Source: a virus
Taxonomy: Duplodnaviria; Caudoviricetes
DNA length: 64,000 nt
Direction: 5' to 3' (one strand)
IMG/VR virus record: IMGVR_UViG_3300037247_001786
Coordinates: 96,001 to 160,000 of that record
A program made the position numbers and the translations under genes. Of this stretch, positions 1,280-27,586 are shown one piece after another (the stretch's first letter is position 1; every line of letters starts with the position of its first letter). The notes below the pieces were generated by a model that had not been told where the DNA came from, did not search any database, and was given only the letters and a program-made list of their open reading frames with translations.

Positions 1280-1280
1280 A

Positions 1281-1302
1281 GTGATTAATCTTCAAGTAAA
1301 AT
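1281..1302 (+). promoter_or_regulatory. Class I promoter
   Basis: GTGATT AATCTTCAAG TAAAAT. Confidence 0.55.
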
Positions 1303-1333
1303 AGTATCTTTAATATTATCAGTAAAGGAAACT

Positions 1334-1894
1334 ATGATTATTAGTGCTTTTGTATTTGGGATTATTAACAGCGTGGTATCTACAATTATCATCTCTATTG
1401 TGGTTTATTGTTATCTTCGTTTTAAAAATTATATAAGGATTAACTCTATCATTAACATAATCAATAGAGAAAGTACAGGGAGTGGAGTCCCTAGAGACAA
1501 AAATGACAGATTAATTGTTGGAGATGTCCAATGTCATATTTCGGAAAATAGAAGCTTAGAGTTTTTTAGTGTAAAAATAAAAAATATTACGTTATATACG
1601 GACGAAGGAGGTGCTCGCCGAGATAGGGAGCCTCCTCCAAAAGTTATAGATATTTCATCTTTAGGCGTTCAAAGTATATCTACTCCCTTAAATAAACTTA
1701 ATAATAACAGGTGGGGATTAATGACTCTTAACGAGATAAAATGTTGTCCTGGTTTTTATAGTAGATTTAAATGCGTGTGTTTTGATATAGATTATATTGA
1801 TACATACGGTCAGTGCCAATTTGGATTTGTATTATTAAATAAAGAAAAATCTAAAAAAATGATAGACCACTTATCTTCTACCGATTTTCTTTAA
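1334..1894 (+). CDS. Hypothetical protein with N-terminal transmembrane helix
   Basis: 186 aa ORF, SD AAGGA, hydrophobic first 28 residues. Confidence 0.7.
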   Translation: MIISAFVFGIINSVVSTIIISIVVYCYLRFKNYIRINSIINIINRESTGSGVPRDKNDRLIVGDVQCHISENRSLEFFSVKIKNITLYTDEGGARRDREPPPKVIDISSLGVQSISTPLNKLNNNRWGLMTLNEIKCCPGFYSRFKCVCFDIDYIDTYGQCQFGFVLLNKEKSKKMIDHLSSTDFL

Positions 1895-1921
1895 CAAATA
1901 AGACTAACTAGCCCAAATTTT

Positions 1922-1951
1922 GCCCAAACCGTCAAAAGTTTGGGCTTTTTT
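1922..1951 (+). terminator. Rho-independent terminator (repeated at 5046-5075)
   Basis: GCCCAAAC-CGTCAAAA-GTTTGGGC-T6. Confidence 0.8.
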
Positions 1952-1979
1952 AGTGATTTAATTTCTGTTAAGATGAAGT
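1940..1979 (+). repeat. 40-bp direct repeat copy 1 (terminator tail plus class I promoter); copy 2 at 6381-6420
   Basis: TTGGGCTTTTTTAGTGATTTAATTTCTGTTAAGATGAAGT identical at both sites; contains GTGATT-N10-TAAGAT at 1953-1974. Confidence 0.9.
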
Positions 1980-2000
1980 GTTAAATTTAATGGAGAAGAT

Positions 2001-2147
2001 ATGAACAGAGAAAAGTTTTGGGCAAAAACTTTTATTTGTAGGAGATGTGGAAGTAGGAGTAGATGTAATAGTTACTGTTTAAAATTAACATGTTCTTGTG
2101 GATACGTCCTTTTTAGGAGCAAAAAGGCAAAAAGATTAGAGTTGTAG
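2001..2147 (+). CDS. Small Cys-rich (zinc-ribbon-like) protein, 48 aa; not in the ORF track
   Basis: MNREKFWAKTFICRRCGSRSRCNSYCLKLTCSCGYVLF...; SD GGAGA; paralog at 6911-7054. Confidence 0.65.
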   Translation: MNREKFWAKTFICRRCGSRSRCNSYCLKLTCSCGYVLFRSKKAKRLEL

Positions 2148-2168
2148 TGGTTAAATTGGAGAAATATA

Positions 2169-2600
2169 ATGAAGTTATTTTTTAGAACTAGAAGAGAAGA
2201 TTTAAAGCTATTAAATTTTATATTAGAAGAATTAGATTTTACCCAATTCGAGTTAAATTGTTTTGACGACAAAGAGAATTGTGTCATTCGGATGGAAGAC
2301 GCTTCTTTCCGCGATATTTTTAATTTTATGGATAATTTATTTTATAGTTATTCTGGTGCGGATGAAATTACGTTTCCTATGGGTTCTGTTTTAATATATC
2401 ATAAAAAAGATAGGAATATTTATATTGATTTTAAAGATTTCGAGGGGCAATCAGATATTCGTCCTTTTGATGAGGCGATTAATCCTGATTACGGATTAGA
2501 TATTGATGATTTTGACATTGATAGTGGTAATTATTTTATCGCTATAAAGTCGCCTGGTGGTTTTTATTGTTATCAATTATCTGGTGACCCTTATAAGTAA
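2169..2600 (+). CDS. Hypothetical acidic protein
   Basis: 143 aa ORF with upstream GGAG, on the coding strand of its neighbours. Confidence 0.7.
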   Translation: MKLFFRTRREDLKLLNFILEELDFTQFELNCFDDKENCVIRMEDASFRDIFNFMDNLFYSYSGADEITFPMGSVLIYHKKDRNIYIDFKDFEGQSDIRPFDEAINPDYGLDIDDFDIDSGNYFIAIKSPGGFYCYQLSGDPYK

Positions 2601-2628
2601 TTCCCAGTATGCGATACAAGATAGGCAA
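2600..2628 (+). repeat. 29-bp direct repeat copy 1 (copy 2 at 4151-4179; 20-bp partial copy at 5640-5659)
   Basis: ATTCCCAGTATGCGATACAAGATAGGCAA exact at both sites. Confidence 0.92.
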
Positions 2629-2645
2629 GTGATTTTCCTTTCAAA

Positions 2646-2667
2646 GTGATTATAGATTCACTATAAT
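2646..2667 (+). promoter_or_regulatory. Class I promoter with a second GTGATT upstream (2629-2634)
   Basis: GTGATT ATAGATTCAC TATAAT followed by SD GAGGAGG. Confidence 0.7.
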
Positions 2668-2693
2668 ATGATCTTAATTTTGAGGAGGAAAAG

Positions 2694-4175
2694 GTGAGAG
2701 AGATATTAGATGATATAGATTTATTTGCGGCAAGTAGACAAGTAGTAGAATATATAATAGCCGGGAATGGAAAGCGAGGAAAATGCCTATCTATTACGCA
2801 TCCGGAAATTGCTAAAGAGTGGGATTTTACTAAAAATAAATTAACACCAAAAGAGGTTACTTATGGGACTAGTAAAAAAGTCTATTGGATTTGTCCTAAA
2901 GGTCATGAATTTGATGCGTTAATAAATAACAGGGCAAGAAGAGGCGATGGTTGTCCTTGTTGTTCTGGGCATAAAGTACATAAAGATAATTGTTTGGCTA
3001 CCCTTAGGCCCGATTTGGCTAAAGAATGGCATCCAACTTTAAACGATTTAACACCAGAAGAAGTTACTTGTGGTAACAATAAAAAAGTGTGGTGGATATG
3101 TCCTAAAGGACATGAATATGAGATAAAGATAAGCCATAGATGTTCGAGAAATCAGGGTTGTCATTATTGTTCTGGGAGGAAAGTTTGTCAAGACAATTGT
3201 TTGGCTACCCTTAGTCCCGATTTGGCTAAAGAATGGCATCCAACTTTAAACGATTTAACACCAGAAGAAGTTACTTGTGGTAGCAAGAAAAAAGTCTATT
3301 GGATTTGCCCTAAAGGGCATGAATATGACGCGACAATAAATAACAGGACTAACGGAGCTAATTGCTCCTATTGTTCCGGACAAAGAGTGCATAAAGATAA
3401 TTGTTTAGCTACTCTCAAACCCGATTTAGCTAAAGAATGGGATTTCATTAAAAATGATTTAACTCCAGAAGAAGTTACTTGTGGTAGCCCTAAAAAAGTC
3501 TATTGGATTTGTCCTAAAGGACATGAATATGACTCGACAATAAGTAGCAGGACTAACGGAACTAATTGCCCCTATTGTTCTGGACAAAGAGTTTGTCAAG
3601 ACAATTGTTTGGCTACCCTTAGGCCCGATTTGGCTAAAGAATGGCATCCAACTTTAAACGATTTAACACCAGAAGAAGTTACTTGCGGTAGCCCTAAAAA
3701 AGTGTGGTGGATATGCCCTAAAGGGCATGAATATGACGCATCTATATGGAAAAGGGCAAGGCGAAGGCAGGGGTGCCGTATCTGTTCCTATGGCAAATCT
3801 GAAAAAGAGGTAGGAGATATTTTAAAAATATATTTCGACAAGTGGAAAATTTTAAGACAGAAAAAAATATGGGATAGCTATAAAAGGTATAATCATAAAA
3901 GATATTGTGATTATTGGTTAGAGAGAAATGGGGCGAAAATTATGGTAGAATATGATGGCAGGCAACATTTTGAACCAGTTAGATTTGCAAATTTTTCTTG
4001 GAAAAAAGCACAAAAAAATCTTGAAAAAACTCAAATAAAAGACAAACTTGACGCAAAATTTTGCAAAGAGCATGGAATTATTCTTCATCGGATCAAATAT
4101 AATGAAGATAAAGAAGAGTCTATTAAGAGACTAAAAGCAAGTTTAGAGTTATTCCCAGTATGCGATACAAGATAG
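2694..4175 (+). CDS. Zinc-ribbon repeat (DUF4379-like, five units) protein with C-terminal Vsr/DUF559-like PD-(D/E)XK endonuclease domain
   Basis: Five 68-69 aa repeats LAKEW..N..TPEEVT.GS.KKV.WICPKGHEY..I..R...C..C; C-terminal DYWL...VEYDGRQH...KFCKEHGIILHRIKY; GTG start with strong SD. Confidence 0.8.
   Translation: MREILDDIDLFAASRQVVEYIIAGNGKRGKCLSITHPEIAKEWDFTKNKLTPKEVTYGTSKKVYWICPKGHEFDALINNRARRGDGCPCCSGHKVHKDNCLATLRPDLAKEWHPTLNDLTPEEVTCGNNKKVWWICPKGHEYEIKISHRCSRNQGCHYCSGRKVCQDNCLATLSPDLAKEWHPTLNDLTPEEVTCGSKKKVYWICPKGHEYDATINNRTNGANCSYCSGQRVHKDNCLATLKPDLAKEWDFIKNDLTPEEVTCGSPKKVYWICPKGHEYDSTISSRTNGTNCPYCSGQRVCQDNCLATLRPDLAKEWHPTLNDLTPEEVTCGSPKKVWWICPKGHEYDASIWKRARRRQGCRICSYGKSEKEVGDILKIYFDKWKILRQKKIWDSYKRYNHKRYCDYWLERNGAKIMVEYDGRQHFEPVRFANFSWKKAQKNLEKTQIKDKLDAKFCKEHGIILHRIKYNEDKEESIKRLKASLELFPVCDTR
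2784..3790 (+). repeat. Intragenic tandem repeat, five units of 204-207 bp
   Basis: Unit starts (Cys codon) at 2784, 2991, 3198, 3402, 3606; long identical DNA stretches between units. Confidence 0.9.
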
Positions 4176-4234
4176 GCAAATAGAGGTTTTCTTTTATTTT
4201 CGCGGAATAAATAGTTATGAACTGGTATAAACAA
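4151..4234 (+). repeat. Cassette junction repeat: 29-bp repeat copy 2; 4160-4234 matches 5640-5714 with one mismatch
   Basis: ATGCGATACAAGATAGGCAAATAGAGGTTTTCTTTTATTTTCGCGGAATAAATAGTTATGAA(C/T)TGGTATAAACAA; encodes CDTR-stop, a class II promoter and MNWYKQ. Confidence 0.92.
4184..4208 (+). promoter_or_regulatory. Class II (sigmaH-like) promoter, probably giving a leaderless mRNA
   Basis: AGGTTTT...CGCGGAAT; ATG is 8 nt after the -10 box; no SD. Confidence 0.6.
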
Positions 4235-5041
4235 ATTAAAATATCTTATACAAGAGCGAAGCAATGGGATCAAGAAACTTTAGACAGAATTGGGCAGTTG
4301 TTTTTAGAGGGTAATAATATATCTCAAGTTGCTAAAATAATGAATATTCCTCGTACAACCCTAACCTCTTTAAACAAAAAATACAAATGGAAAGAATCTA
4401 GAGTTTTTTCTCAAGACGAATTAGATACAATCGGAGAATTAATATCAGAAGGTAATTCTTTAACCGAAATTGCAAATATGCTTAATATCCCTCGTTCGAC
4501 ATTGTCTTGGATGAGAGGAAAATACAATTGGGAAAGTTTTGACGAACAAAAACGAAAATGGTGGAAACAATTAGCCGATTCTTATCTAGAGGGATTAAGC
4601 TTTGATGATGTAGCCGCCAAATTTAACACGACTAACATAAGTGTTCGTAATGCATTAATATTTTTAGGTTTAAAAGATAAGATACGGTCTCAATCAGAGA
4701 TTTCTAAACAAAAATGGCAAGATGAAGATTTTAGAAATAAGATGATGGAATACCATGGAAGTGATGAAAATAGAAAAAGGGTAAGTGAATGGTCTAAGAA
4801 GAATTGGCAAAATCCTGAAATGAGAAAGAGGTTGACAGATGCTCCTACTCAATGGTGGGCAGAGCGAGGAGGACTAGAGGGTTATTTAACATCTATTCCT
4901 AAAGAGCAAGCTATTACTTATTTAAATGGACTTGTCGCTAGAAAACATACTGAAAATCCTGATATGGCATTTGCTATTAAAAATAAATATATGCAAATAA
5001 TAGAGCGAGCCAATTCTGAACCTCAACTACCTACTATATAA
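4217..5041 (+). CDS. Multi-HTH DNA-binding protein with MNWYKQ leader and W..P..R helical repeats
   Basis: Three HTH-like segments (ISQVAKIMNIPRTTL, LTEIANMLNIPRSTL, FDDVAAKFNTTNISV); no nuclease motif seen; paralog of 5697-6353. Confidence 0.7.
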   Translation: MNWYKQIKISYTRAKQWDQETLDRIGQLFLEGNNISQVAKIMNIPRTTLTSLNKKYKWKESRVFSQDELDTIGELISEGNSLTEIANMLNIPRSTLSWMRGKYNWESFDEQKRKWWKQLADSYLEGLSFDDVAAKFNTTNISVRNALIFLGLKDKIRSQSEISKQKWQDEDFRNKMMEYHGSDENRKRVSEWSKKNWQNPEMRKRLTDAPTQWWAERGGLEGYLTSIPKEQAITYLNGLVARKHTENPDMAFAIKNKYMQIIERANSEPQLPTI

Positions 5042-11944: not shown

Positions 11945-12523
11945 TTAATTTTCCTGTATAGGACCTATGTCTTTATTTCTAATATGATCCCCTGTCATGA
12001 TAGCCATTTGCATATTAGCTTTTATTAATTCTAAATAGATATCTTCTAGTAGTGTTTTTGCATCGAGGTCCATTGTTAAGACTTCATTATTATCTTCTCC
12101 CGATATTCCGATAGGTTGAGCATTTCCATCGGGGTCTTTGCCGTGAAGAAGGATTCCCCCTGTTTCGACTGTAATAGGTTGTCCTGGAGTTACTTCTTCA
12201 ATTAATTGATCGGAGACATCCGTTACTTCGTTTTCTTCTGCTGGAGTAATAGCTTCATCTATTTTAGCAATAGATATTGGTCCAGGAAATTCATTGGTAT
12301 ATATTTTCTGTTTGTTAAGGGAAAATTTGCCTGATTTAAGTAATGAAGCTAATACAGTGGAATGGCTTATTTTTTCGCGAGAATAAAATCTTAATACATC
12401 TATTTTTTTACCTGGTTTAATAACAGGAAGAAGGAGCAAATCTCCAACCGCCATATTATATTTGGTATTATTTGTTACCCACCAAGATTCTCTTTTATTC
12501 TCATCTCTTCTAATATCAGCCAC
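11945..12523 (-). CDS. Hypothetical protein whose N-domain is shared with 20975-21547
   Basis: GTG start with SD AAGGAG; NNTKYNMAVGDLLL..IKPGKKID...SREK...S..LASLLKSG. Confidence 0.75.
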   Translation of the reverse strand: MADIRRDENKRESWWVTNNTKYNMAVGDLLLLPVIKPGKKIDVLRFYSREKISHSTVLASLLKSGKFSLNKQKIYTNEFPGPISIAKIDEAITPAEENEVTDVSDQLIEEVTPGQPITVETGGILLHGKDPDGNAQPIGISGEDNNEVLTMDLDAKTLLEDIYLELIKANMQMAIMTGDHIRNKDIGPIQEN

Positions 12524-16535: not shown

Positions 16536-16823
16536 ATGGAAACAGAAAATAAAAATATAAAGAATGATACTAAAAAGAAAGTTTCTAAGAAAAAAAAGGT
16601 AGAAGAGGTTAACGAAATAATTAGTAGTGTATCTTGTATTGATCTTGAAAATAAGTTTTTATTAGTTCGAGTAGGCACAATTGATAATCCTGCATCAACT
16701 GACCAGATTAATGAAGTTCAGGAGAAATTAGAAGATATGCTTAATAAACATAATATAAAATGTTTAGCTTTTGTAACTCATCATGCGGTAGATATGACAT
16801 TGATAGAGAAGCGTGTAATTTAA
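16536..16823 (+). CDS. Hypothetical protein
   Basis: 95 aa, SD GAGGAG. Confidence 0.7.
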   Translation: METENKNIKNDTKKKVSKKKKVEEVNEIISSVSCIDLENKFLLVRVGTIDNPASTDQINEVQEKLEDMLNKHNIKCLAFVTHHAVDMTLIEKRVI

Positions 16824-16836
16824 ATAAGGACTTTAC

Positions 16837-17262
16837 ATGAAGAATAAAAACGATAAAACTATTTTTAATAATTTTTTAGAATATTGGTATTTTGCTAGAT
16901 TCTTTTCAGATCATCAGAAAGAGATCATATTTAATAGTTTATCATTCAAAGAGCAAGACGCTTTAATAAAATCTTGCAATAAAGGGGGATGGGATGATGT
17001 TCTAAATAGAAATATTTTAGACGAGATACTCGATGATATAAAAAAAGAAACTGGGTATAATTTAATAGATATTCGCTATAAAGTGTTGCACAATAAGAGC
17101 GTCTATATTCCTACTGAATTTTGGTTACATGTACTATCTCAATTTAAAGATTATGACAAAAAACAAATAAATTATATTTTAGGGGGCATCAAGGCTGTAA
17201 AGTGTGATCAAAATTCAGATATTACATTACTTACACCATTTTATTCTAAACTTAAGGAGTAG
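16837..17262 (+). CDS. Hypothetical protein
   Basis: 141 aa, SD AAGGA. Confidence 0.7.
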   Translation: MKNKNDKTIFNNFLEYWYFARFFSDHQKEIIFNSLSFKEQDALIKSCNKGGWDDVLNRNILDEILDDIKKETGYNLIDIRYKVLHNKSVYIPTEFWLHVLSQFKDYDKKQINYILGGIKAVKCDQNSDITLLTPFYSKLKE

Positions 17263-17263
17263 T

Positions 17264-17971
17264 ATGTCAAAAAAGAAATCTCGGGCAAACGGAACTGTTA
17301 CAGAATTAAAAAGAACAAAAGATCTTGGTTTTAGCACAAAAAAGAAAGTTACCCTTTCTGCGAAAACTGAAAATCAAAAACAACTATTTAAATCAATTAA
17401 GCATAATGTAATAACTATAGCTACGGGACCACCAGGAACTGGGAAAACTCTTATATCTGTCGTGAGTGCTTTAAAATCTCTTATAGACTGCAAGTACGGT
17501 AAAATAATTTTCACTCGTCCTTGTATAGAGGCAGATGGCGAGAATTTAGGCTTTTTACCAGGCGATTTAAATGAGAAAATATCTCCATACATGATGCCAA
17601 TTTTTGATTTCTTATCAGGGTATTTAGATAAAGTTCAAATAGAAAAAATGATATTAAATGGAAATATTATGACAATCCCTCTTGCTTTTATGAGGGGTAT
17701 AACATTTGAGAACTCTTTTGTCCTATTAGATGAATGTCAAAATACCACTCCCAAACAGATGAAAATGGTTTTAACTAGAATAGGGGAAAACTCTCAAGTA
17801 GTAATGACTGGAGACCCTAATCAATCAGATATAAAAGGAACAAACGGTTTAGTAGATATTGTAACTAGACTGGATAATGTTCCTGATATAGGTATCGTTC
17901 GCTTTACAGAAGAGGATATCGTGAGACATGGAATTGTTAAAATTATAGAGAAACGTTACGAAGGAGTTTAA
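17264..17971 (+). CDS. phoH: PhoH-family ATPase
   Basis: Walker A GPPGTGKT, LGFLPGDLNEK..PYM, PLAFMRGITF, LLDECQNTT..QMKMVLTRIG, TGDPNQSD; SD AAGGAG favours ATG 17264. Confidence 0.95.
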   Translation: MSKKKSRANGTVTELKRTKDLGFSTKKKVTLSAKTENQKQLFKSIKHNVITIATGPPGTGKTLISVVSALKSLIDCKYGKIIFTRPCIEADGENLGFLPGDLNEKISPYMMPIFDFLSGYLDKVQIEKMILNGNIMTIPLAFMRGITFENSFVLLDECQNTTPKQMKMVLTRIGENSQVVMTGDPNQSDIKGTNGLVDIVTRLDNVPDIGIVRFTEEDIVRHGIVKIIEKRYEGV

Positions 17972-17984
17972 CTCAATAAAATAA

Positions 17985-18009
17985 AGGTTTTTGCGGAAAA
18001 TATAACAAT
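17985..18009 (+). promoter_or_regulatory. Class II promoter for the 18052-22609 operon
   Basis: AAAGGTTTTTGCGGAAAATATAACAAT. Confidence 0.55.
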
Positions 18010-18051
18010 GTATAAAAATATATTTTAATATGCAATAACTGGAGTGTAGAT

Positions 18052-20793
18052 ATGTCATTTTTAAAGAAAATATTAGGAAGAGTTTATAAAAATAGTGGTC
18101 AAGGGTTCAATTTAAAGAATCAAATGATGAAAAAAGCGGTTGTGGCTGAAGAAACTGGATACCTTCCAGACACCCTTACTCCTTTAGAAGATTTTGACGA
18201 AACAGGACAGATGCAACCGAAACAAGTAGACCCTTCATATAGTGTTGCTATGGAGAGATACATAGATCAAAATGTGAATGAATCTCAACTCCCCCCAATA
18301 CCTTCAGAGTGGGTAGACGATATAAATTTAAGAATGCATTTTCAAAATATAGCTCAACAAAGAATAGGAAATATGTCTGAGTCATTTGTATCTAGAGCAT
18401 TTCAAGCTACTATGATGGCGAAAGAAGCCCCTGTTTCACCTCAACAACAAGCTCCTCAACAACAATCTCCTCAACAGCAGGGAGATGACTATGTTGACAT
18501 TGACACTGACCTGGTAACTAAATTTTTAGATACTCCTCATGCTCTTTCTGTTTTAGATTCCATATCTACATCAATACTTCAGTCTGGATACAGCCAGGTT
18601 AACAATAAAGATACGGCTGATGCTAGGGCTTGGCAATCGGTCGCCTTTGCGTTAGGTCCTCCTATCGCTAAAAAAAGAGGAGAAGGTATTAGAAGGGACC
18701 AAAGATTTAATTATTTTCTTTTTAACCCTGACAAGATGCCAGTGGATATTTCTCGCGATTATCAACAGTTTTTAGTAGCCAATCCTGAAATAAAAACAGA
18801 TCAAGCTATAGAATATTTAAAAAGTAACTTCGGCGATAAATTAATAACTGCTTTAAATGAGGATATTAATAATAATGATCCAAGTATTAAACAGTGGATA
18901 TTAAAGCAGGAAGGACATGTCGCTAAAGACGAAACGGACGAACAGATAGGAGTATCATTGACGGGAGGAGGAGATGATGCTGATGCCTATAATTTACAAG
19001 AAGAAGACATAGGCTCTATGAATTTAAACAGAGTGGAACAAAGAGAGAAAGACGTAAGAGAAATATCGGATGAAAAAAATTCTTTAACTAGATCCGTAAA
19101 GGCTTTTGCTAAATTATACATACAAGATGTGGTTAGAGATATGAAAGAAGTTTTATCAAAAGCTGTAGAAAGTAGCTATAATAAATATCCAGGTAAAGAG
19201 TCTTACAATATAGAAAGAATGAATTTATTTAACAAGAAACTATTAGATCAATATTTAGAAATATTTAATTCTGACCCTGTGATTGACCCTAAAACGGGTG
19301 CCGTCTCTTTTAGAAAATACCAACAAGACCCTAAAAATCCCAATAAACAGATATATACTGCAAGAATAGATATTCCTCAAGAAGATATAATTAGTATTTT
19401 TAAAGGAAATATAGAAAAAGACGTTACTGATCTTTATAGAGATATTAAAGATCAAAGAAAAGAAGGGAAAGCTGATTTTGATATTTTAAATTGGTTTAAA
19501 AAGTCTCAAGATAAGGGAATTCTTCCTCATACTGCGTTGCAGGATAGTTATAAAAAAGCTTATATTATTAAATCTATTATCAGAAATGCTCTCAAGAAAA
19601 ATACGATAGATGGAATTGCTTCTAACCCTGAACATATTTTTACTGGATCAAAAGAGATGGGAAGTGAGGAGATGTTAAAAATGTTATACCAGCTTTCTAA
19701 TTCAGATGAACAGGGAATATCTAAAGAAGAGAGAAAGAGAAGAGTTGCAAGATATATTGATATGACAGAAAAGGATGCACAGAACCCCAAGGGGGGTAAT
19801 TATGAGATGTATAAAACATTTGCTGATATGAAGAGGCAAAATTTAGAGCCAGGTAGTGAAGAGTCTAAAGAGATGGCAAATTCAATGAAGCCTTATGCTC
19901 AATATGACTCAATGTATCTTATGGAAGGTCTAAATGATGCGAAACAAAATCAATCAGATCCATATCATAGCGATGTTTTTAAAGCATTTTTAGGGGCATT
20001 GAATCCACACAAGAGGGTAAGAACAGGTAAGTTATCAAATATATATAATAGTTTGATGGGGAAGGGAGAAGAATATAAAGAAGATGTATCAATGCTCTCT
20101 AAAAAAGAAGCGATACAATATCGAAATTTAAAACTAAGCAAGATGCGTTACGAAAGCACGCTACAAGATAAAGAAAAAGCTATTGAAACGCAGCATGTAA
20201 AAATAAAAAAAGTAACAGACAAATATCATGCTCGCATATCTAAAGCTCTTATTTCAGCTAATAAGAAAAGAAAAATACAAGGATTAAGAGATATGAGTAT
20301 GGGAGAGTATGTAGGTAAACCAGAGTGGGACGGAAAGTCGCCTCTTCATTATGAAGATTATATCAGAGCTGGCATAAACAAAGCTAAAGATTCCCTATGG
20401 GGGAAAGACGAAGCTACTCATTGGAGAGATTTTGGACCAATGAGGCAGATAGAGACTATTAAGAATAGAGAGCCTCAACCTACATACAATGAAGCTGGAG
20501 ATAGAATAGAGCCTCCTATCAGGTCTCAAAATGTTCAATTTATTAAAAATAAAATACAAGAAGCAAATTTAGCGTTAGACGAGTTTAGAAAAACTCATAA
20601 AATTACCGATATTCAAGACAGAATGGCAGAAGCATTATGTAAGACGTATCTTGTAAAAATAGCCTCTATAAAAGAGACTGTAAGTAGATACAGTAATATG
20701 AAAATAGCTTTTAACGTATCTATATTTAATAATATGGTGCAAGATATACATAATAATTTTGAATTAGAGTTTAATAAAATATTTGGAATATAA
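18052..20793 (+). CDS. Large helical hypothetical protein with Gln-rich linker (possible internal virion protein)
   Basis: 913 aa, PQQQAPQQQSPQQQ segment, charged helical composition. Confidence 0.8.
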   Translation: MSFLKKILGRVYKNSGQGFNLKNQMMKKAVVAEETGYLPDTLTPLEDFDETGQMQPKQVDPSYSVAMERYIDQNVNESQLPPIPSEWVDDINLRMHFQNIAQQRIGNMSESFVSRAFQATMMAKEAPVSPQQQAPQQQSPQQQGDDYVDIDTDLVTKFLDTPHALSVLDSISTSILQSGYSQVNNKDTADARAWQSVAFALGPPIAKKRGEGIRRDQRFNYFLFNPDKMPVDISRDYQQFLVANPEIKTDQAIEYLKSNFGDKLITALNEDINNNDPSIKQWILKQEGHVAKDETDEQIGVSLTGGGDDADAYNLQEEDIGSMNLNRVEQREKDVREISDEKNSLTRSVKAFAKLYIQDVVRDMKEVLSKAVESSYNKYPGKESYNIERMNLFNKKLLDQYLEIFNSDPVIDPKTGAVSFRKYQQDPKNPNKQIYTARIDIPQEDIISIFKGNIEKDVTDLYRDIKDQRKEGKADFDILNWFKKSQDKGILPHTALQDSYKKAYIIKSIIRNALKKNTIDGIASNPEHIFTGSKEMGSEEMLKMLYQLSNSDEQGISKEERKRRVARYIDMTEKDAQNPKGGNYEMYKTFADMKRQNLEPGSEESKEMANSMKPYAQYDSMYLMEGLNDAKQNQSDPYHSDVFKAFLGALNPHKRVRTGKLSNIYNSLMGKGEEYKEDVSMLSKKEAIQYRNLKLSKMRYESTLQDKEKAIETQHVKIKKVTDKYHARISKALISANKKRKIQGLRDMSMGEYVGKPEWDGKSPLHYEDYIRAGINKAKDSLWGKDEATHWRDFGPMRQIETIKNREPQPTYNEAGDRIEPPIRSQNVQFIKNKIQEANLALDEFRKTHKITDIQDRMAEALCKTYLVKIASIKETVSRYSNMKIAFNVSIFNNMVQDIHNNFELEFNKIFGI

Positions 20794-20796
20794 AAT

Positions 20797-20967
20797 ATGA
20801 ATATTACGACGGTATGCTCTCATTGTAGAAATCACGATAAAGAGCCGAATATAGAGATTAATTTCAAAGATGGAGCTGTTTATTATATTTGCCCAGAATG
20901 TAAAAAAGAGAGTAAAATACTTTTAAAAGCAGAAGGTAAACCTTTTCCTAAATTAAGAAGAGTATAA
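20797..20967 (+). CDS. Small zinc-ribbon protein, 56 aa; not in the ORF track
   Basis: MNITTVCSHCRNH...YYICPECKKESK...; fills the gap between two genes. Confidence 0.7.
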   Translation: MNITTVCSHCRNHDKEPNIEINFKDGAVYYICPECKKESKILLKAEGKPFPKLRRV

Positions 20968-20974
20968 TATTTTT

Positions 20975-21547
20975 ATGTTTTTTATTGTAAATACTACAAA
21001 GAACTCTTTATGTATCGCTGATCTAAAATTAACATTAGGACCTCGACAGGGAATAGATCTAGACAAGAGAAATAAAAGAGAAGAGGCTGAAAAATCTCAA
21101 GGATTAAAGTCTTTAGTATCTAAAGGTCTTATTTCTATTAAAAATAAAACTAAACCAGAAGTCCAGTCTAATTTTATACAAGAAATTCATAACCATAGCG
21201 AGATAGATACTGATCAGATGAAGAAAGAGATTATGGAGGGGGTTAAAGAAGCGATAGCTGAAAATATGCCTCCTCAACCAACTCCTCAACAGCCAAATAT
21301 TAATATGGAGGAATTGGCTAAGATGATAGCATCTATTATCCCTCAGTTGAACAATAATGCCAATTTAAATTCTACTCCAAAAGATGAAGAAGTTAAAGTA
21401 GATGAGGGTATTTTAGCCGATATACATAGTAGAGTTGTTAATAAAATAGTTAAAAACGTTGAAAGTGGCGATATTAATTATCAGAAAGAGAAAACAAGTA
21501 ATACTATAGATGATAATATTGATGAATTAGAAGGTTTATTAGAATAA
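20975..21547 (+). CDS. Hypothetical protein; candidate partner of the actin-like ATPase
   Basis: N-domain paralogous to 11945-12523, Pro/Gln linker, acidic amphipathic C-terminus IDDNIDELEGLLE. Confidence 0.75.
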   Translation: MFFIVNTTKNSLCIADLKLTLGPRQGIDLDKRNKREEAEKSQGLKSLVSKGLISIKNKTKPEVQSNFIQEIHNHSEIDTDQMKKEIMEGVKEAIAENMPPQPTPQQPNINMEELAKMIASIIPQLNNNANLNSTPKDEEVKVDEGILADIHSRVVNKIVKNVESGDINYQKEKTSNTIDDNIDELEGLLE

Positions 21548-21559
21548 TAGGAGATAAAG

Positions 21560-22609
21560 ATGTCTAGAGCAATAGCGTGGGATCCTGGAACGATGTTTTT
21601 TCAGATAGCGGAAAAAAATGGAGAGGAAATAGATATAAATATAATTAGAAATGCTTTTGTTGAATTGGAAGCGACAGATGATATTGAGCAAGTGTTGGAG
21701 CAAAATAATTGGCAATATATCTCTGATGGTAAGAAGTTCTATATTATAGGTGAAGATAGTTTAAGGGTTGCGAAGATGTTCCCTGGCAAAGTTGAGCTAA
21801 GAAGACCTATGCAGGATGGAGTTCTTAATAAAGGTGAGGACAAAAAGATGTTAGTTATGACAAAGATGCTGGAAGACGTAATAGGTAAAGCATCAGATAA
21901 TAGTTCAATGGTTTGTTTTTGTGTCTCTTCTGAATCGGTAGATAACAATATTGATAACACATTTCATAAAGCTAGGCTAGAGGGGATGGCTAAAAGATTA
22001 GGATATAATACTAAGGTAATCGAAGAGGGTCACGCGGTAGTTTTAGCGGAACGCCCAGTAATGATAGAGGCAGACGGCACTGAGTCTCCTTATTCTGGTA
22101 TAGGGATTTCTTTTGGAGCCGGAAAAGTTAATTGCGTATTAGCTTATAAGGGGTTGCCAATTATCGGGATGTCAGCTACGAGAAGTGGAGACTATATTGA
22201 TCAAAAAGTATCAGAGCAAACAGATACTCCAATAGCTCAAGTTACCACTATTAAAGAAAAAAGTTTAGATTTCGACAATATAGATTATGATGATGATGTT
22301 ATTTTTGCATTAGATGCGTATTATACAAATATGTTAGAATATGTATTTAAAAACTTTTCAATAAAATTTCAGGAGGTTAAAAGTCAATTCGAGGCTCCTC
22401 TTGATATAGTCATCGCTGGCGGAACATCTATGCCTAAAGGATTTAGGAATAAGGTTCAAAGAGTTATAAATAAATTGGATTTACCATTTCAGATTAAGGA
22501 AGTTAAACTTTCTCAAGATCCTAGAAATGCGGTAGTTAAGGGATGCTTGACTCAAGCAATTATTTCTCAAAAAAAGTTTAAAGCGAAATCAGCAGATACG
22601 ATAATTTAA
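21560..22609 (+). CDS. Actin/Hsp70-fold ATPase, resembling the volactin/Mad28 group
   Basis: Phosphate-1 AWDPGT, connect EEGHAVV, phosphate-2 GIGISFGAGKVN, SGDYID, adenosine VIAGGTSMPKGF, AVVKGCL; RNAFVE and LRRPM..GVL match my recollection of volactin/Mad28. Confidence 0.85.
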   Translation: MSRAIAWDPGTMFFQIAEKNGEEIDINIIRNAFVELEATDDIEQVLEQNNWQYISDGKKFYIIGEDSLRVAKMFPGKVELRRPMQDGVLNKGEDKKMLVMTKMLEDVIGKASDNSSMVCFCVSSESVDNNIDNTFHKARLEGMAKRLGYNTKVIEEGHAVVLAERPVMIEADGTESPYSGIGISFGAGKVNCVLAYKGLPIIGMSATRSGDYIDQKVSEQTDTPIAQVTTIKEKSLDFDNIDYDDDVIFALDAYYTNMLEYVFKNFSIKFQEVKSQFEAPLDIVIAGGTSMPKGFRNKVQRVINKLDLPFQIKEVKLSQDPRNAVVKGCLTQAIISQKKFKAKSADTII

Positions 22610-22627
22610 ATAAAGGTTTCCAGAAGA

Positions 22628-22676
22628 AAAAAAGAGAAGTTATACTGAATAAATAGAAGTGTAACTTCTCTTTTTT
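22628..22676 (+). terminator. Long hairpin/terminator overlapping a class II promoter (22614-22639)
   Basis: 18-bp arms AAAAAAGAGAAGTTATAC / GTGTAACTTCTCTTTTTT with one G-T pair, 13-nt loop. Confidence 0.75.
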
Positions 22677-22690
22677 AATGGAGGCTCATA

Positions 22691-23416
22691 ATGGGTTATT
22701 GTACTCAAACAGATATAGAAAATGTTATTGCACAGGCATTAACTAGTGCAACCGCTTCAAGCCCAGACTCGTTTGGGACACTATCTTCTCTTATTAATAT
22801 AGGGAATTCTCTTGATAAAAATTTAGTTCCAGATTCGTCAGTAGATTATTATATCCAAATGGCTGATAGGGAGGTAGATGCTTCATTGAGCGAACTTTAC
22901 TCCACTCCATTTTGCGAATTAGCTAATTTTGAAACAGTTCTATTCTCTGATATTTACGAATATAATCCTTATATTGTGACAGAAAGAGCATGTCCGCTCG
23001 CCGTAGGAGACCAGGTTATTATTTTAGGTTCTGGGCAAGAGGAAAGACATGTTATAGATGAGGTTATTAGCTCTATGATTTTTTCTACCGAAGATGAAAT
23101 AGGATTTTCATTTACTGCTGATAGTAGGGTTGTTAGGGTATCTTATCCGGATCCTATTAGATTTATCTCCGCAAGAAAAGCGTCAGCTACCCTATATGAT
23201 AAATATTTTTCTTCAGAAAGTTCTCCTAACGTTTCTAAATTTGGAGAATACTTAAGGCAATTAGCATTTACTGATACTAATAATATTTTAAATGGAACAA
23301 CTATTTTACATGGACAACATAGAATAGGTCGTAGATTTTATAATAGTAATTTGGTTGACCAGTATGGATTACCTCAGGGTGGAGCTATTTCAAAAGATAT
23401 GAGGCAAATAAAATAA
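22691..23416 (+). CDS. Head-tail connector/adaptor (DUF1320/gp6-like) with an inserted beta domain
   Basis: YCTQTDIEN...IQMADREVDASLSELYSTP...IRFISARKASATLY; position before the tail genes. Confidence 0.7.
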   Translation: MGYCTQTDIENVIAQALTSATASSPDSFGTLSSLINIGNSLDKNLVPDSSVDYYIQMADREVDASLSELYSTPFCELANFETVLFSDIYEYNPYIVTERACPLAVGDQVIILGSGQEERHVIDEVISSMIFSTEDEIGFSFTADSRVVRVSYPDPIRFISARKASATLYDKYFSSESSPNVSKFGEYLRQLAFTDTNNILNGTTILHGQHRIGRRFYNSNLVDQYGLPQGGAISKDMRQIK

Positions 23417-23692
23417 ATGAATCAAGATCAAGATGGAATTGAATATTTAGAAGAGTTATCTTCTAAGATAAATAAGTACCAAGGAGTAAGCGAACTAGGA
23501 GAAGAGCTTCAGGTAGGAATACGATTATCGAAGACAAATAAAGGGGCAAGAACAAATGCTAGGATAGAGTCGGCTCAGAAAAAAGAACCGTTTGATGAGA
23601 CAGAAACTATTGAAGAGGAATTGATGGACGTAGAAGATGACATAACGGGTGAATTAATAAATAGAATGCTAACAGATATATTTGGAATATAA
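23417..23692 (+). CDS. Small acidic neck/tail completion candidate
   Basis: 91 aa, synteny only. Confidence 0.6.
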   Translation: MNQDQDGIEYLEELSSKINKYQGVSELGEELQVGIRLSKTNKGARTNARIESAQKKEPFDETETIEEELMDVEDDITGELINRMLTDIFGI

Positions 23693-23695
23693 GAT

Positions 23696-24601
23696 ATGGC
23701 GATGCAAGAAGTTTTAGATAGTGTAAGGCGGATAGTTCATAAATGGGTGAACACTATTACTCCTATAACAGCAAACATTACGCCTGGGGACACTGTTATC
23801 TCTGTTCAGAATGTTAGGCGTTTTCAAATAGGTGATCAGATAATGGTAAAAGGGTCACAAAAGTACGAGACAGGTCTTATTATAGAAGAAACCGATTCCA
23901 CATTACAAACTATAACAGTGACAACTCCTCTTCTTAATAGTTGGGTAGTCTCTCCAAATACCACGATAATAAAAACAATAGGAGAGCAATTTGTTCAAGG
24001 TATATATATAGGAGACCCTGATGTTATTATTAAGTTTCCTGCTATCACTGTAAGTGGGGCTAGCAGGTCTTCAGAATGGCTTACTCTCGAAAGCACAAAA
24101 GAAAGATATGAAATAGAAATAGGAGTTTTTGTTCAAGACTCTACTCATGAAAAAGGATATAGATTTCTTATGGCTTTAGTTGATACAATACAAAAAGGAT
24201 TAAAAAGGAATGTCTTACCAATGATATACGATGCTGAATTTTCTGCTCTTAAAACAAACTATACAAATAATGATCCTAATATAATTGTTAGCGATAGTAG
24301 TATTTTTGAACCATATCAAAGAATATATATAGAAGATCCAACACAATTTGTTGAGACATGGACGGATGTTATTTATAGCGATGGCGAAACTATAAAGTTA
24401 AAATGGCCTCTTGACTTAGCTTTTGATAAAGACGATACCATTATTACTATCCCTCATAGATTTATATTTAATTCTTGGCCTGCAACTATTAATTATGGAA
24501 AAATACACAAAGGGCAATTACTTAAAGCCGCTACTATTAGTTGGTTTGCAGAAGAGGAAGAATCTCAGTTCTTACGAAGAGATGAGGGGAAAATATTTTA
24601 A
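23696..24601 (+). CDS. Tail terminator/completion protein with inserted beta domains
   Basis: FPAITVSG...ERYEIEIGVFV...LMALVDTIQKGL pattern; synteny. Confidence 0.6.
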   Translation: MAMQEVLDSVRRIVHKWVNTITPITANITPGDTVISVQNVRRFQIGDQIMVKGSQKYETGLIIEETDSTLQTITVTTPLLNSWVVSPNTTIIKTIGEQFVQGIYIGDPDVIIKFPAITVSGASRSSEWLTLESTKERYEIEIGVFVQDSTHEKGYRFLMALVDTIQKGLKRNVLPMIYDAEFSALKTNYTNNDPNIIVSDSSIFEPYQRIYIEDPTQFVETWTDVIYSDGETIKLKWPLDLAFDKDDTIITIPHRFIFNSWPATINYGKIHKGQLLKAATISWFAEEEESQFLRRDEGKIF

Positions 24602-25255: not shown

Positions 25256-26245
25256 ATGGCTACAAATCCTTTCTTTGACCAGCCACCTGCATATATGGGA
25301 TATGTTGGTTTCGTCAATATTGATGGAAACATCATCAGGGCGACATCGGCTGATATTGCATTAACGCAAGACATTACAAAACCTGACGTTGTAGATGGAC
25401 GTATTGACAGGACAGTCTATCAGCTTGGACCTCAAGAGGTTGGAGGTTCAGTAGCTTTTCCTGCGATATATGACAATGCTGGAGGAGTAACAACGATAGC
25501 AAATATGTGGGAAAAAGTTTGCAAAAGAACAGAGTTAGGCACTTTGTTAAGTTTCCCTATTACTGTTAAGTACGCTCAAACTGGAACATATAATAGTTCA
25601 AGTTTTACTTATGATAATTGCGTAGCAAATAGTCTTCAATTTTCTGTAACTCAGGGAGACGTTATGAATGTAAGTATGGACGTTATAGGGCTAACAAGAA
25701 CGCCTGTATCGATACCAGACCCACCTGGAACTTCTACTTCTACGGATAACAGCAGAATTGTAACATGGGCTGATTCAAGAATAGAGATAAACGCAGGAGA
25801 TCAACGTCCTATTGGATTGGCAGGACAAATCGGAGGTCAATTCATTAGGTCTTTTGAAGTTAATATAAGTAACAACGTAGAAAGATTTTATACTTTGAAT
25901 AAGGCGTTATTTGCTCAAGCGGTAGCTCCTTCCAAGAGAGACGTAACAGGCAATATAGTTGTTCTCGGTAGACTACCAGGTTTATCAGAATTAGCATTTA
26001 CAAATGAAAATTATGCATACGAAGATACAGAGATCCGTTTTGGATTCACTCCTTCTATTGGCAGCTCCGAATTTATTAGAAGAATCCCTAATGTTGTTTT
26101 CCAAATTGAAGAAATGTCAATTACTAACAACTTATTTGAAACTACAATGAATTGGCATTCGCTTCCAGCTGCAAGAATTGCAAGTTCGACAACTACAGCG
26201 ACGACAGATCCTTTATTGGATACAACTTTCACTACTACCTATTAA
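25256..26245 (+). CDS. Major tail tube protein
   Basis: NSLQFSVTQGDVMNVSMDVIG, RSFEVNISNNVERFYTL, KRDVTGNI tube-fold patterns; precedes chaperone and tape measure. Confidence 0.78.
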   Translation: MATNPFFDQPPAYMGYVGFVNIDGNIIRATSADIALTQDITKPDVVDGRIDRTVYQLGPQEVGGSVAFPAIYDNAGGVTTIANMWEKVCKRTELGTLLSFPITVKYAQTGTYNSSSFTYDNCVANSLQFSVTQGDVMNVSMDVIGLTRTPVSIPDPPGTSTSTDNSRIVTWADSRIEINAGDQRPIGLAGQIGGQFIRSFEVNISNNVERFYTLNKALFAQAVAPSKRDVTGNIVVLGRLPGLSELAFTNENYAYEDTEIRFGFTPSIGSSEFIRRIPNVVFQIEEMSITNNLFETTMNWHSLPAARIASSTTTATTDPLLDTTFTTTY

Positions 26246-27544: not shown

Positions 27545-27561
27545 CAAAAGAAGACGAATAA

Positions 27562-27586
27562 AGGTTTTTTTCGCGAAAAATATAAT
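27562..27586 (+). promoter_or_regulatory. Class II promoter for the tape measure gene
   Basis: AAAGGTTTTTTTCGCGAAAAATATAAT. Confidence 0.55.

What the first reader, a model, noticed from the sequence alone, without database searches (positions are those of the whole stretch)
17985..22676. Phage actin-like ATPase (volactin/Mad28-like) in a four-gene late-type operon with a candidate adaptor
Seen: one class II promoter, a 913-aa helical protein, an unannotated zinc-ribbon, a 190-aa protein ending in an acidic amphipathic tail (IDDNIDELEGLLE), then a 349-aa protein with the actin-fold motifs (DPGT, EEG, GISFGAG, GGTS) and a terminator, directly before the head-tail connector. Known: phage cytomotive filaments are mainly PhuZ/TubZ tubulins and rare actins such as CGP3 AlpC. 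From memory this sequence resembles haloarchaeal volactin and magnetosome Mad28 more than ParM or MreB. Inference: a filament-plus-adaptor system acting during virion assembly, capsid/DNA trafficking or host-shape remodelling rather than plasmid-like segregation.
Basis: partly seen in the sequence, partly recalled or inferred. Interest (0 to 1): 0.75.

Follow-up and report, generated by a model that had tools for sequence, protein, structure and literature searches.

The report
Volactin-type actin gene in huge phage
A 461-kb uncultivated marine-sediment phage, like at least 37 related viral contigs of up to about 550 kb, carries a true actin gene of the recently named volactin family, fixed between two small partner genes and the head-tail adaptor gene; this points to an undescribed actin cytoskeleton that these phages use late in infection.

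Summary
Four tightly spaced + strand ORFs (913, 56, 190 and 349 aa) lie between a recurring late-promoter-like motif and a strong hairpin terminator.

**The 349-aa protein is an actin.** It matches Pfam Volactin PF25216 at E 7e-63 over its full length. The AlphaFold2 model has pLDDT 95.8, and its best solved-structure matches are MreB, MamK, BeeR and actin. It is not the capsid protein: portal, protease-scaffold and major capsid genes lie 15-25 kb upstream of the window.

**Conservation.** It is the best-conserved gene of the neck/tail block. The order zinc ribbon, 190-aa protein, actin, Mu-gp36-like adaptor holds in 35-37 of 37 IMG/VR loci, and in relatives down to 37% actin identity. The 913-aa protein is conserved only among close relatives.

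**Candidate adaptor.** The 190-aa protein has a folded N-domain, a flexible linker and a conserved C-terminal helix. Complex prediction gives only weak support for binding.

**Other points.** Several orthologues carry inteins inside the ATP-binding motifs. Filament formation and function are inferred, not shown. I could not test the Mad28 link.

This scan flagged the same family earlier in other huge-phage genomes. I found no paper describing it.

The parts
17204..17971 (+). PhoH-like ATPase gene, upstream neighbour. It is also the upstream neighbour of the cassette in three related loci.
   Evidence: Pfam PhoH E 1e-72. PhoH lies upstream in L004/L005, L006 and L010.
17981..18002 (+). Late-promoter-like motif ATAAAGGTTT-N-AAAATA, 50 nt before the 913-aa ORF.
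   Evidence: Two exact pattern matches in the window against 0 expected. The core also precedes the protease-scaffold gene, the adaptor gene and the tape-measure-like gene. Promoter function is inferred.
18052..20793 (+). 913-aa fast-evolving protein with no known family. It has a Q/P-rich low-complexity stretch and an invariant N-terminal F-N-L motif.
   Evidence: No Pfam or PHROG hit. Orthologues of 860-1028 aa are found only in close relatives, at 20-25% identity. The ESM Atlas model is poor, pLDDT 0.46.
20797..20967 (+). 56-aa four-cysteine zinc-ribbon protein, a conserved partner gene.
   Evidence: C7, C10, C32 and C35 are invariant. It is found in 35 of 37 IMG/VR loci and in L009-L011. 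Weak match to phrog_30325.
20975..21547 (+). 190-aa candidate adaptor. Folded N-domain (residues 1-58), flexible linker with isolated helices, and a conserved C-terminal helix ending N-I-D-E-L-E-x-L-L.
   Evidence: AlphaFold2: pLDDT above 92 for residues 1-58 and a helix at 178-189. Conservation pattern in the 39-sequence alignment A5. Present upstream of the actin gene in 37 of 37 IMG/VR loci. Complex prediction with the actin: weak support.
21560..22609 (+). 349-aa actin-fold ATPase of the Volactin family.
   Evidence: PF25216 E 7e-63 covering profile positions 4-321 of 321. AlphaFold2 pLDDT 95.8, pTM 0.93. Foldseek top hits are MreB, Mbl, BeeR, MamK and actin. More than 600 homologues at E<=0.001, the best 120 listed at 66-87% identity.
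22610..22619 (+). Second copy of the ATAAAGGTTT core, directly after the actin stop codon.
22628..22676 (+). Hairpin with 19-nt arms flanked by an A run and a T run, an intrinsic-terminator-like structure.
   Evidence: -31.9 kcal/mol, z -7.98, matched by 0 of 200 shuffles. Inverted repeat I2.
22691..23416 (+). 241-aa head-tail adaptor candidate (Mu gp36/DUF1320-like), the conserved downstream neighbour.
   Evidence: PF07030 hit in 13 of 13 orthologues, all below Pfam's 24.7-bit cut-off, best E 6e-5. PDB 8rka DUF1320 protein at E 0.006. phrog_195 at E 0.008. Present in 36 of 37 IMG/VR loci.
25256..26245 (+). Tail tube protein, which places the cassette in the neck/tail module.
   Evidence: Pfam Phage_tube_2 E 9e-16 and phrog_290. 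The same family lies downstream of the actin gene in L002, L004-L006, L009 and L010.

Best explanation
**Shown.** ORF 21560-22609 encodes a phage actin of the Volactin family. It has a complete nucleotide-binding site of that family's type. It is a vertically inherited core gene of a widespread clade of huge phages, with contigs up to about 550 kb. Its position is fixed: behind a four-Cys zinc-ribbon gene and a 190-aa gene, and in front of the head-tail adaptor gene, inside the neck/tail module. A promoter-like motif shared with other virion operons precedes the unit.

**Inferred.** Late in infection the protein binds ATP and polymerises into filaments, as cellular volactin does in vivo. The 190-aa protein acts as its adaptor: the C-terminal amphipathic acidic helix docks on the actin, and the folded N-terminal domain holds a phage cargo. 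The zinc ribbon is a further cofactor. Together they would position or bring together virion parts (filled heads, necks, tails) or organise the assembly site in a large infected cell. That would be an actin-based counterpart of the PhuZ tubulin system of nucleus-forming jumbo phages. This genome has no tubulin gene by the Pfam Tubulin model.
For: **Family and fold**
- Pfam Volactin 213 bits against a 35-bit cut-off, full length.
- The best sequence match in the PDB is MamK.
- AlphaFold2 pLDDT 95.8.
- The 50 Foldseek rows shown are almost all MreB/Mbl, MamK, BeeR, actin or Arp entries, with no sugar kinase or Hsp70 among them.
- Catalytic-site columns are conserved family-wide: D8, G10, T11, E156, G186, G188, G287, G288.
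- Volactin forms dynamic filaments in vivo (PMC10869688).

**It is not the capsid protein.** Portal (phrog_16240, 1e-49), protease-scaffold and major capsid protein (phrog_2522, 3e-63) lie elsewhere in the genome.

**Selection and importance**
- It is the most conserved gene of the block, tied with the adaptor in one locus and just behind the 56-aa zinc ribbon in three.
- Inteins are inserted in its phosphate-2 loop and in the G-D-W-I-D motif in several orthologues.

**Linkage**
- Across 37 IMG/VR loci the zinc ribbon is present in 35, the 190-aa family in 37 and the adaptor in 36.
- The same order holds at 51%, 41% and 37% actin identity.

**Partner**
- The 190-aa protein has a domain-linker-helix architecture with a nearly invariant C-terminal E-L-x-x-L.
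- Complex prediction verdict was 'weak support'. Score 0.55 against a best control of 0.00. The runs agree in at least 62% of contacts, and the partner's pLDDT is at least 56.
- In the tool's calibration the pass mark was reached by 58 of 80 solved complexes and 2 of 110 mismatched pairs. At a score of 0.60 or under, only 7 of those 80 solved complexes passed, and so did both mismatches.

**Timing.** The ATAAAGGTTT motif is shared with the protease-scaffold, adaptor and tape-measure-like operons.

**No tubulin.** PF00091 finds nothing in the genome, while it rings in 13 of 14 control genomes.
Against: - No experiment or read data shows polymerisation, timing of expression or localisation.
- Gene position is the only link to virion assembly.
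- The complex score falls in the band where passes are more often wrong than right unless the prior was good, and no contacts were returned.
- The N-domain of the 190-aa protein has no identified fold or cargo. The best VIA match has Z 4.2, which is below any meaningful level.
- The family's phosphate-2 loop has Ser where most actins have Asp, so its ATPase kinetics cannot be assumed.
- Cellular volactin is linked to cell shape, not to cargo transport.
- The only cultured-phage hit by structure, Bacillus phage G gp506, is just 13% identical. No model system exists.
Confidence: 0.5

Rival explanations
1. A non-filamentous ASKHA ATPase acts as an assembly chaperone or minor virion-associated factor for the neck or tail. 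It would resemble the Hsp70 homologue of closteroviruses, which helps build the virion and is incorporated into it (established knowledge, not tested here).
For: The gene sits directly in front of the head-tail adaptor gene in every locus examined. Hsp70-like proteins of viruses share the fold and appear among the BFVD matches. The phosphate-2 Asp is replaced by Ser.
Against: The sequence family is Volactin, whose founding member polymerises in vivo. Foldseek ranks polymerising actins first, and the 50 rows shown from the PDB hold no Hsp70. The protein has no substrate-binding domain and is only 349 aa.
Confidence: 0.17
2. A host-remodelling cytoskeleton. The phage actin changes host cell shape or size, as volactin influences the rod-to-disk transition in Haloferax, to make room for very large particles. 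Its position among the structural genes would only reflect late timing.
For: It belongs to the same family as a cell-shape factor (PMC10869688). Huge capsids need space.
Against: The strict and very old linkage to the zinc ribbon, the 190-aa protein and the adaptor is not needed for a shape function. I saw no membrane-targeting segment in the sequence (direct reading, weak evidence). The host is unknown.
Confidence: 0.12
3. A ParMRC- or AlpAC-like DNA-positioning system. The 190-aa protein would be a ParR/AlpA-type DNA-binding adaptor that ties phage DNA to growing filaments for replication-site placement, packaging or plasmid-like carriage.
For: Prophage CGP3 uses the actin AlpC with the DNA-binding adaptor AlpA (PMC4446434, PMC5539076). 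The 190-aa protein has the small N-domain plus C-terminal helix layout of ParR-type adaptors. One source names a homologue 'predicted transcriptional regulator'.
Against: There is no iteron or centromere-like repeat array in or around the operon. The adaptor candidate lies upstream of the actin gene, not downstream. The setting is the neck/tail module, not the replication genes. No DNA-binding fold was recognised. The actin family differs from ParM and AlpC.
Confidence: 0.12

Closest known systems
Volactin (VolA, HVO_2015) of Haloferax volcanii; Pfam PF25216
   Same: Same sequence family: 213 bits, full-length match. It shares the family signatures G-I-S-F-G-A-G (Ser in phosphate 2) and R-x-G-D-W-I-D. 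VolA forms dynamic filaments in vivo (PMC10869688).
   Different: Identity to the cellular members sampled is only about 28-35%. The phage proteins form their own strongly supported clade (SH-aLRT 100), apart from the cellular group (quick tree with an unresolved backbone). The gene is virus-encoded, lies in a neck/tail module and has two dedicated small partner genes. The cellular relative examined (L016) has none of these neighbours.
PhuZ/TubZ tubulin spindle of nucleus-forming jumbo phages (Chimalliviridae)
   Same: A cytoskeletal polymer encoded by very large phages. By established knowledge, PhuZ filaments position the phage nucleus and deliver capsids. This is the functional model proposed here.
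   Different: The fold is unrelated (tubulin versus actin). This genome has no Pfam Tubulin match. PhuZ is not embedded in a neck/tail operon and has no known adaptor of this kind.
AlpC/AlpA of Corynebacterium prophage CGP3, and ParM/ParR
   Same: A phage- or plasmid-borne actin with a small adaptor protein (PMC4446434, PMC5539076).
   Different: The actin family differs. P0004 shows no Pfam match to any ParM-type family, and only Volactin passes a cut-off. No centromere-like repeats are present. The setting is the late structural genes. The adaptor candidate has no recognised DNA-binding domain.
MamK and Mad28 of magnetotactic bacteria
   Same: MamK is the best sequence match among solved structures (E 0.012), and its filament form gives the highest TM-score (0.69). 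Mad28 is reported to polymerise and to lack two of the five canonical motifs (PMC10653835), which recalls the Ser-type phosphate-2 loop here.
   Different: The match to MamK is marginal. I could not compare Mad28, because no sequence was available through the tools.

Membership tests
Volactin (Pfam PF25216) | Full-length match above the curated gathering score | tested here: met
   213.4 bits against a 35-bit cut-off, profile positions 4-321 of 321. Reproduced on the genome, with one of the 14 control genomes over the cut-off; four ring, among them Haloferax volcanii.
Volactin (Pfam PF25216) | Actin fold with the five nucleotide-binding motifs, in the family's own form (Ser in phosphate 2; R-x-G-D-W-I-D) | tested here: met
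   AlphaFold2 pLDDT 95.8. Foldseek matches MreB, MamK and actin. S184, G186, G188, G210 and D211 are invariant or nearly so across the 82 sampled family members and in the distant set A6.
Volactin (Pfam PF25216) | Dynamic polymerisation in vivo | not testable with these tools
   Shown only for VolA of Haloferax volcanii (PMC10869688).
Mad28 | Clusters with Mad28 of Thermodesulfobacteriota/Nitrospirota in a tree or profile | not tested
   No tool gave a Mad28 sequence. Only literature descriptions were read.
MreB/Mbl (Pfam PF06723) | Match above the gathering score | tested here: not met
   21.6 bits against a 27-bit cut-off, covering residues 58-167 only.
ParMRC / AlpAC type II segregation system | Centromere-like repeat array next to the actin and adaptor genes | tested here: not met
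   No repeat family with more than 2 copies in 16800-23800. The only strong inverted repeat is the terminator hairpin.
ParMRC / AlpAC type II segregation system | Adaptor with a DNA-binding domain whose C-terminus binds the actin | tested here: inconclusive
   A C-terminal helix is present and conserved. The binding prediction is a weak pass: 0.55 against a best control of 0.00. No DNA-binding fold was recognised.
Phage tubulin PhuZ/TubZ | Tubulin/FtsZ GTPase fold | tested here: not met
   P0004 has an actin fold. There is no PF00091 match anywhere in the genome.
HK97-type major capsid protein (rival raised by the gene order) | Capsid-protein family match, with no other capsid gene in the genome | tested here: not met
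   The major capsid protein is found at genome 80615-81487 (phrog_2522, 3e-63), with portal and protease-scaffold next to it. P0004 has no PHROG hit.

The most novel reading that the evidence does not exclude
The zinc ribbon, the 190-aa protein and the actin form a self-contained, actin-based transport or positioning machine specific to a large clade of huge phages. Filaments would capture virion parts through the 190-aa adaptor and drive head-tail joining or particle arrangement. That would make it the first actin counterpart of the PhuZ spindle, and the first actin family known to host inteins.
Probability: 0.35. Interest if true: 0.85.

Novelty: new variant of a known kind. Interest (0 to 1): 0.72.

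Why it matters
Phage cell biology currently knows one well-studied viral cytoskeleton, the PhuZ tubulin of nucleus-forming jumbo phages, and a few ParM-like actins used for DNA handling. This finding adds a different actin family. It is a core gene, about as conserved as structural genes, in a globally distributed clade of huge phages with contigs up to about 550 kb. It is wired into the neck/tail operon and has two dedicated partner genes.

If it polymerises, very large phages have solved the problem of organising assembly in the cell at least twice, once with tubulin and once with actin. It also widens the volactin family from a haloarchaeal shape factor to viruses, and to bacteria-type fusions.

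It gives testable reagents: a 349-aa protein with a high-confidence model, and a 190-aa partner with a defined C-terminal peptide.

The 2026 jumbo-phage review (PMC13282480), the 2021 comparative survey (PMC7824862) and the 2020 huge-phage paper (PMC7162821) do not mention such an actin.

Tried and rejected
1. **Capsid/portal misreading.** The order (large protein, small protein, 190 aa, 349 aa, adaptor) mimics portal-scaffold-capsid. I rejected this because the real portal, protease-scaffold and major capsid genes lie at genome 71-81.5 kb.

2. **'The Ser in phosphate 2 is a phage-specific rewiring.'** Rejected. S184 is nearly invariant across the 82 sampled family members, including the haloarchaeal-type and other distant ones.

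3. **'The 190-aa protein's tail is the genome's common C-terminal address tag.'** Rejected. The F-D-x-I-D-x-[DE] tag is on 8 other ORFs, while the D-E-L-E-x-L-L ending is unique to this protein.

4. **DNA and protein searches of GenBank phages.** There was no DNA match. There were only two protein hits at 28-29% identity, in uncultured huge phages LR745208 and LR756511. Their neighbours gave no informative PHROG matches.

5. **ESM Atlas look-ups** of the 913-aa and 190-aa proteins gave no usable family.

6. **VIA wide search with the 190-aa model.** The best match was Z 4.2 (YqbF, ribosomal proteins, GINS), below any meaningful level, so no fold could be assigned.

As a result I did not sample named cellular genomes, and Mad28, MamK, ParM and AlpC were not placed in a tree.

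8. **Tree.** The tree is a quick search rooted on one long MreB branch. Only the phage clade (support 100) and the grouping of the cellular members (support 90) are used from it.

9. **Sequencing runs.** No RNA holder is listed. The only run that holds the whole stretch is a marine sediment metagenome, which may be the source of this DNA.

10. **A mistyped call** returned nothing.

Full report
**What is there.** The window is positions 96001-160000 of a 460,978-bp IMG/VR virus record with direct terminal repeats. The only sequencing run that holds the whole stretch is a marine sediment metagenome, which may be its source. At the given coordinates four + strand ORFs follow each other with gaps of 3, 7 and 12 nt:
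- P0001, 18052-20793, 913 aa
- P0002, 20797-20967, 56 aa
- P0003, 20975-21547, 190 aa
- P0004, 21560-22609, 349 aa

Upstream lies a PhoH-like gene. Downstream lie a 241-aa gene, further small genes, a tail tube gene (Pfam Phage_tube_2, 9e-16) and a tape-measure-like gene.

**Regulatory signals.** The sequence ATAAAGGTTT-N5-12-AAAATA occurs at 17981-18002, 50 nt before P0001, and at 27558-27582, before the tape-measure-like gene. None is expected by chance. Genome-wide, the ATAAAGGTTT core also precedes the protease-scaffold gene and two other genes, and it stands directly after the P0004 stop codon at 22610-22619. A 19-nt-arm hairpin at 22628-22676 with a T run is very stable (-31.9 kcal/mol, z -8.0). 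These data fit a late transcription unit shared with virion genes. Promoter function is inferred, and I cannot explain why a second motif copy lies in front of the hairpin.

**Ruling out a trivial reading.** The order large protein, small protein, 190 aa, 349 aa, adaptor looks like portal, scaffold and capsid. Following leads in earlier notes of this scan, I checked the region 15-25 kb upstream of the window:
- genome 71380-73680 is the portal (phrog_16240, 1e-49; it also has a C-terminal DUF559 domain)
- genome 74390-79894 is a giant protease-scaffold (head maturation protease PHROG)
- genome 80615-81487 is the major head protein (phrog_2522, 3e-63)

P0004 is therefore not the capsid protein, and P0001 is not the portal.

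**What P0004 is.**
- Pfam Volactin (PF25216) matches at E 7.3e-63, 213 bits, over profile positions 4-321 of 321. MreB reaches only 21.6 bits, below its cut-off. The same model passes its cut-off in just one of 14 control genomes; four ring, among them Haloferax volcanii.
- Among solved structures, the best sequence match is MamK, at E 0.012.
- An AlphaFold2 model built from 82 family members has pLDDT 95.8 and pTM 0.93.
- Foldseek against the PDB returns MreB/Mbl, BeeR, MamK (TM 0.69 for the filament form) and eukaryotic actin. No sugar kinase or Hsp70 is among the 50 rows shown.
- Against predicted viral structures, nothing is closer than 13-14% identity. The hits are Hsp70 homologues and Bacillus phage G gp506.
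- Across the 82 sampled family members the nucleotide-site columns are conserved: D8, G10, T11, E156, G186, G188, G287, G288.
- The Ser at position 184, where most actins have Asp, is nearly invariant family-wide. That includes haloarchaeal-type and other distant members. It is a volactin-family trait, not a phage-specific change.
- The founding member, VolA, forms dynamic filaments in vivo (PMC10869688).

**Distribution, conservation and inteins.**
- The 90%-cluster database holds more than 600 homologues at E<=0.001. The best 120 listed are 66-87% identical, and many sit on contigs of 140-548 kb, some mis-binned as bacterial or archaeal MAGs.
- The exhaustive search of 50%-identity representatives finds 823 clusters at E<=0.001 and 206 at E<=1e-30.
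- IMG/VR yields 37 loci on contigs up to 548 kb.
- In a quick maximum-likelihood tree, the window's protein lies in a clade of huge-phage proteins with SH-aLRT 100. Three members with cellular-type features group elsewhere with support 90: one haloarchaeal-type, one fused to a ParB-type HTH and one fused to a BY-kinase. The backbone is unresolved, and the root rests on a single long MreB branch.
- P0004 is the most conserved gene of the block or ties for it, except that the 56-aa zinc ribbon edges it in three loci (75, 78 and 38%). Identities to six related loci are shown below.

| Gene | Identity to six related loci (%) |
|---|---|
| Actin (P0004) | 73, 68, 75, 50, 39, 37 |
| Adaptor (241 aa) | 61, 50, 63, 43, 39, 35 |
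| Tail tube | 44, 39, 45, 35, 37 (five loci) |
| P0003 | 27-36 (four loci) |
| P0001 | 23 at most |

- About 16 of the 150 best representatives are 700-800 aa because they carry inteins with LAGLIDADG endonuclease domains. The junctions show at least three insertion areas: G-I-S|C...H-N|C-G-A-G inside phosphate 2, several positions just after G-A-G-M, and S-x-R|C...H-N|C-G-D-W-I-D.
- By established knowledge, inteins favour essential catalytic motifs. This is indirect support that the nucleotide site is functional and the gene important.

**The neighbourhood.**
- In three long relatives with 67-75% identical actins, the order is large protein, 56-58 aa, 187-199 aa, actin, 241-242 aa, about 90 aa, about 300 aa and later the tail tube, with PhoH upstream in two of them and three small ORFs before the actin in one.
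- Profiles of P0002 and P0003 find their orthologues directly upstream of the actin gene at 51% actin identity (a relative read with TAG=Q), at 41% and at 37%.
- A systematic check of the 37 IMG/VR loci finds the P0003 family in 37, the zinc ribbon in 35 and the adaptor in 36. Both loci that lack the zinc ribbon are cut by a contig end just upstream of the P0003 gene; the one without a detected adaptor has about 3 kb of sequence downstream. In some loci a few small ORFs are inserted between P0003 and the actin gene.
- P0001-type proteins are recognisable only in the close clade, at 20-25% identity. Little beyond an N-terminal F-N-L motif is conserved.
- At 35% actin identity the context changes to ClpP, a resolvase and glycosyltransferases. 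A cellular, haloarchaeal-type relative has none of these neighbours and instead has a second volactin paralogue.
- The conserved functional unit is therefore zinc ribbon + P0003 + actin, next to the adaptor.
- The adaptor call itself rests on PF07030 (Mu gp36) hits in all 13 orthologues, all below Pfam's 24.7-bit cut-off (best E 6e-5), and on a DUF1320 structure at E 0.006.

**The candidate adaptor P0003.**
- Its family evolves quickly, at 33-71% identity among the detected homologues. Two parts are kept: residues 1-60 and a C-terminal N-I-D-E-L-E-x-L-L, with E184, L185 and L188 nearly or fully invariant.
- AlphaFold2 gives a confident small alpha/beta domain for residues 1-58 (pLDDT above 92). 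After it comes a low-confidence linker with isolated helices, ending in a terminal helix at 178-189.
- The N-domain has two paralogues in the genome: window 11945-12523 on the minus strand (E 2e-6) and a 514-aa ORF (E 0.004). The C-terminal ending is unique in the genome.
- Complex prediction of actin plus P0003 gave the verdict 'weak support'. The score was 0.55 against a best control of 0.00. The runs agree in at least 62% of contacts, and the partner's pLDDT is at least 56. The pass mark was reached by 58 of 80 solved complexes and 2 of 110 mismatched pairs. At 0.60 or under, only 7 of those 80 solved complexes passed, and so did both mismatches. No contacts were reported.
- With the strong synteny as a prior, I put binding at roughly even odds.

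**Mechanism.**
- Shown: the family, the fold, an intact nucleotide site of the family's type, core-gene status, fixed linkage to two small genes and the adaptor, and a promoter-like motif shared with virion operons.
- Inferred: ATP-dependent polymerisation late in infection, docking of the P0003 C-terminal helix on the actin, and use of the filaments to place or join virion parts. This would be analogous to PhuZ in nucleus-forming jumbo phages. This genome has no Pfam Tubulin match.
- I give this composite reading about 0.5.
- Rivals are a non-filamentous assembly chaperone or virion-associated ATPase (0.17), host shape or size remodelling (0.12), and a ParMRC/AlpAC-like DNA-positioning system (0.12). 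The last is weakened by the lack of any repeat array and by the structural-gene setting.

**Comparison and novelty.**
- The protein is a member of the Volactin family by the curated profile, and it probably works like other cytomotive actins.
- It is not MreB (below the cut-off). It does not sit in a ParMRC-type locus. It is unrelated in fold to PhuZ. I could not test the Mad28 link, because no sequence was available.
- Papers on volactin (17 hold the term), on actin-like proteins with huge phages and on jumbo phages and actin homologues describe no such phage actin. The same holds for the 2026 jumbo-phage review, the 2021 comparative survey and the 2020 huge-phage paper. PF25216 is cited nowhere in the library.
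- Earlier AI notes of this same scan reached the same family assignment on other huge-phage genomes. I re-derived it independently here.
- New in this report: the family-wide nature of the Ser loop, the intein sites, the 37-locus synteny count, the architecture of P0003 and the weak complex pass.

**Limits.** There is no experimental or expression evidence. The host is unknown. The tree is a quick one. Contexts of most family representatives were not examined.

Noticed in passing
Proteins P0124, P0127, P0128, P0132, P0149, P0150, P0203, P0223, P0227 and others (orthologues elsewhere, not in this window): Inteins with LAGLIDADG endonuclease domains interrupt volactin-type actin genes at three or more sites: inside G-I-S|G-A-G, just after G-A-G-M, and before G-D-W-I-D. 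I know of no report of inteins in an actin-fold protein (from memory).
   Followed up: partly
L009 (NCBI GCA_040384165.1 contig, 92 kb): A relative with a 51% identical actin needs TAG read as Gln for the actin gene to translate. It is a stop-codon-recoded phage that keeps the same cassette.
   Followed up: no
window 22610-22676: A copy of the late-promoter-like core ATAAAGGTTT lies between the actin stop codon and the terminator hairpin. Transcripts started there would begin with the hairpin. The arrangement is unexplained.
   Followed up: partly
window 11945-12523 (-) and genome 90019-91563 (+): Two other ORFs carry the N-terminal domain of the 190-aa protein (E 2e-6 and 0.004). It is a small phage-specific module reused in the genome.
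   Followed up: partly
   Followed up: partly
L002 13276 onward (548-kb contig): The gene in the tape-measure position of a relative is called as 5139 aa, against 1095 aa in this window. Tail-length genes differ greatly within the clade.
   Followed up: no
P0134, P0158, P0183; L016: Volactin-family proteins, at least some of them cellular, occur as tandem duplications in one chain, as fusions to a ParB-type HTH or to a Wzz/BY-kinase module, and as two adjacent paralogues in a haloarchaeal-type MAG.
   Followed up: no
window 245-5041: A LAGLIDADG endonuclease (PF03161, 4e-33), a protein with five DUF4379 zinc-finger repeats and HNH-type PHROG matches, and an HTH protein cluster at the start of the window. 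This is a patch of mobile endonuclease genes.
   Followed up: no
BFVD hit G3MAP7: Bacillus phage G, a cultured 498-kb phage, has gp506, a 371-aa actin-fold protein (TM 0.60, 13% identity). It is a different family but a possible cultured comparator.
   Followed up: no
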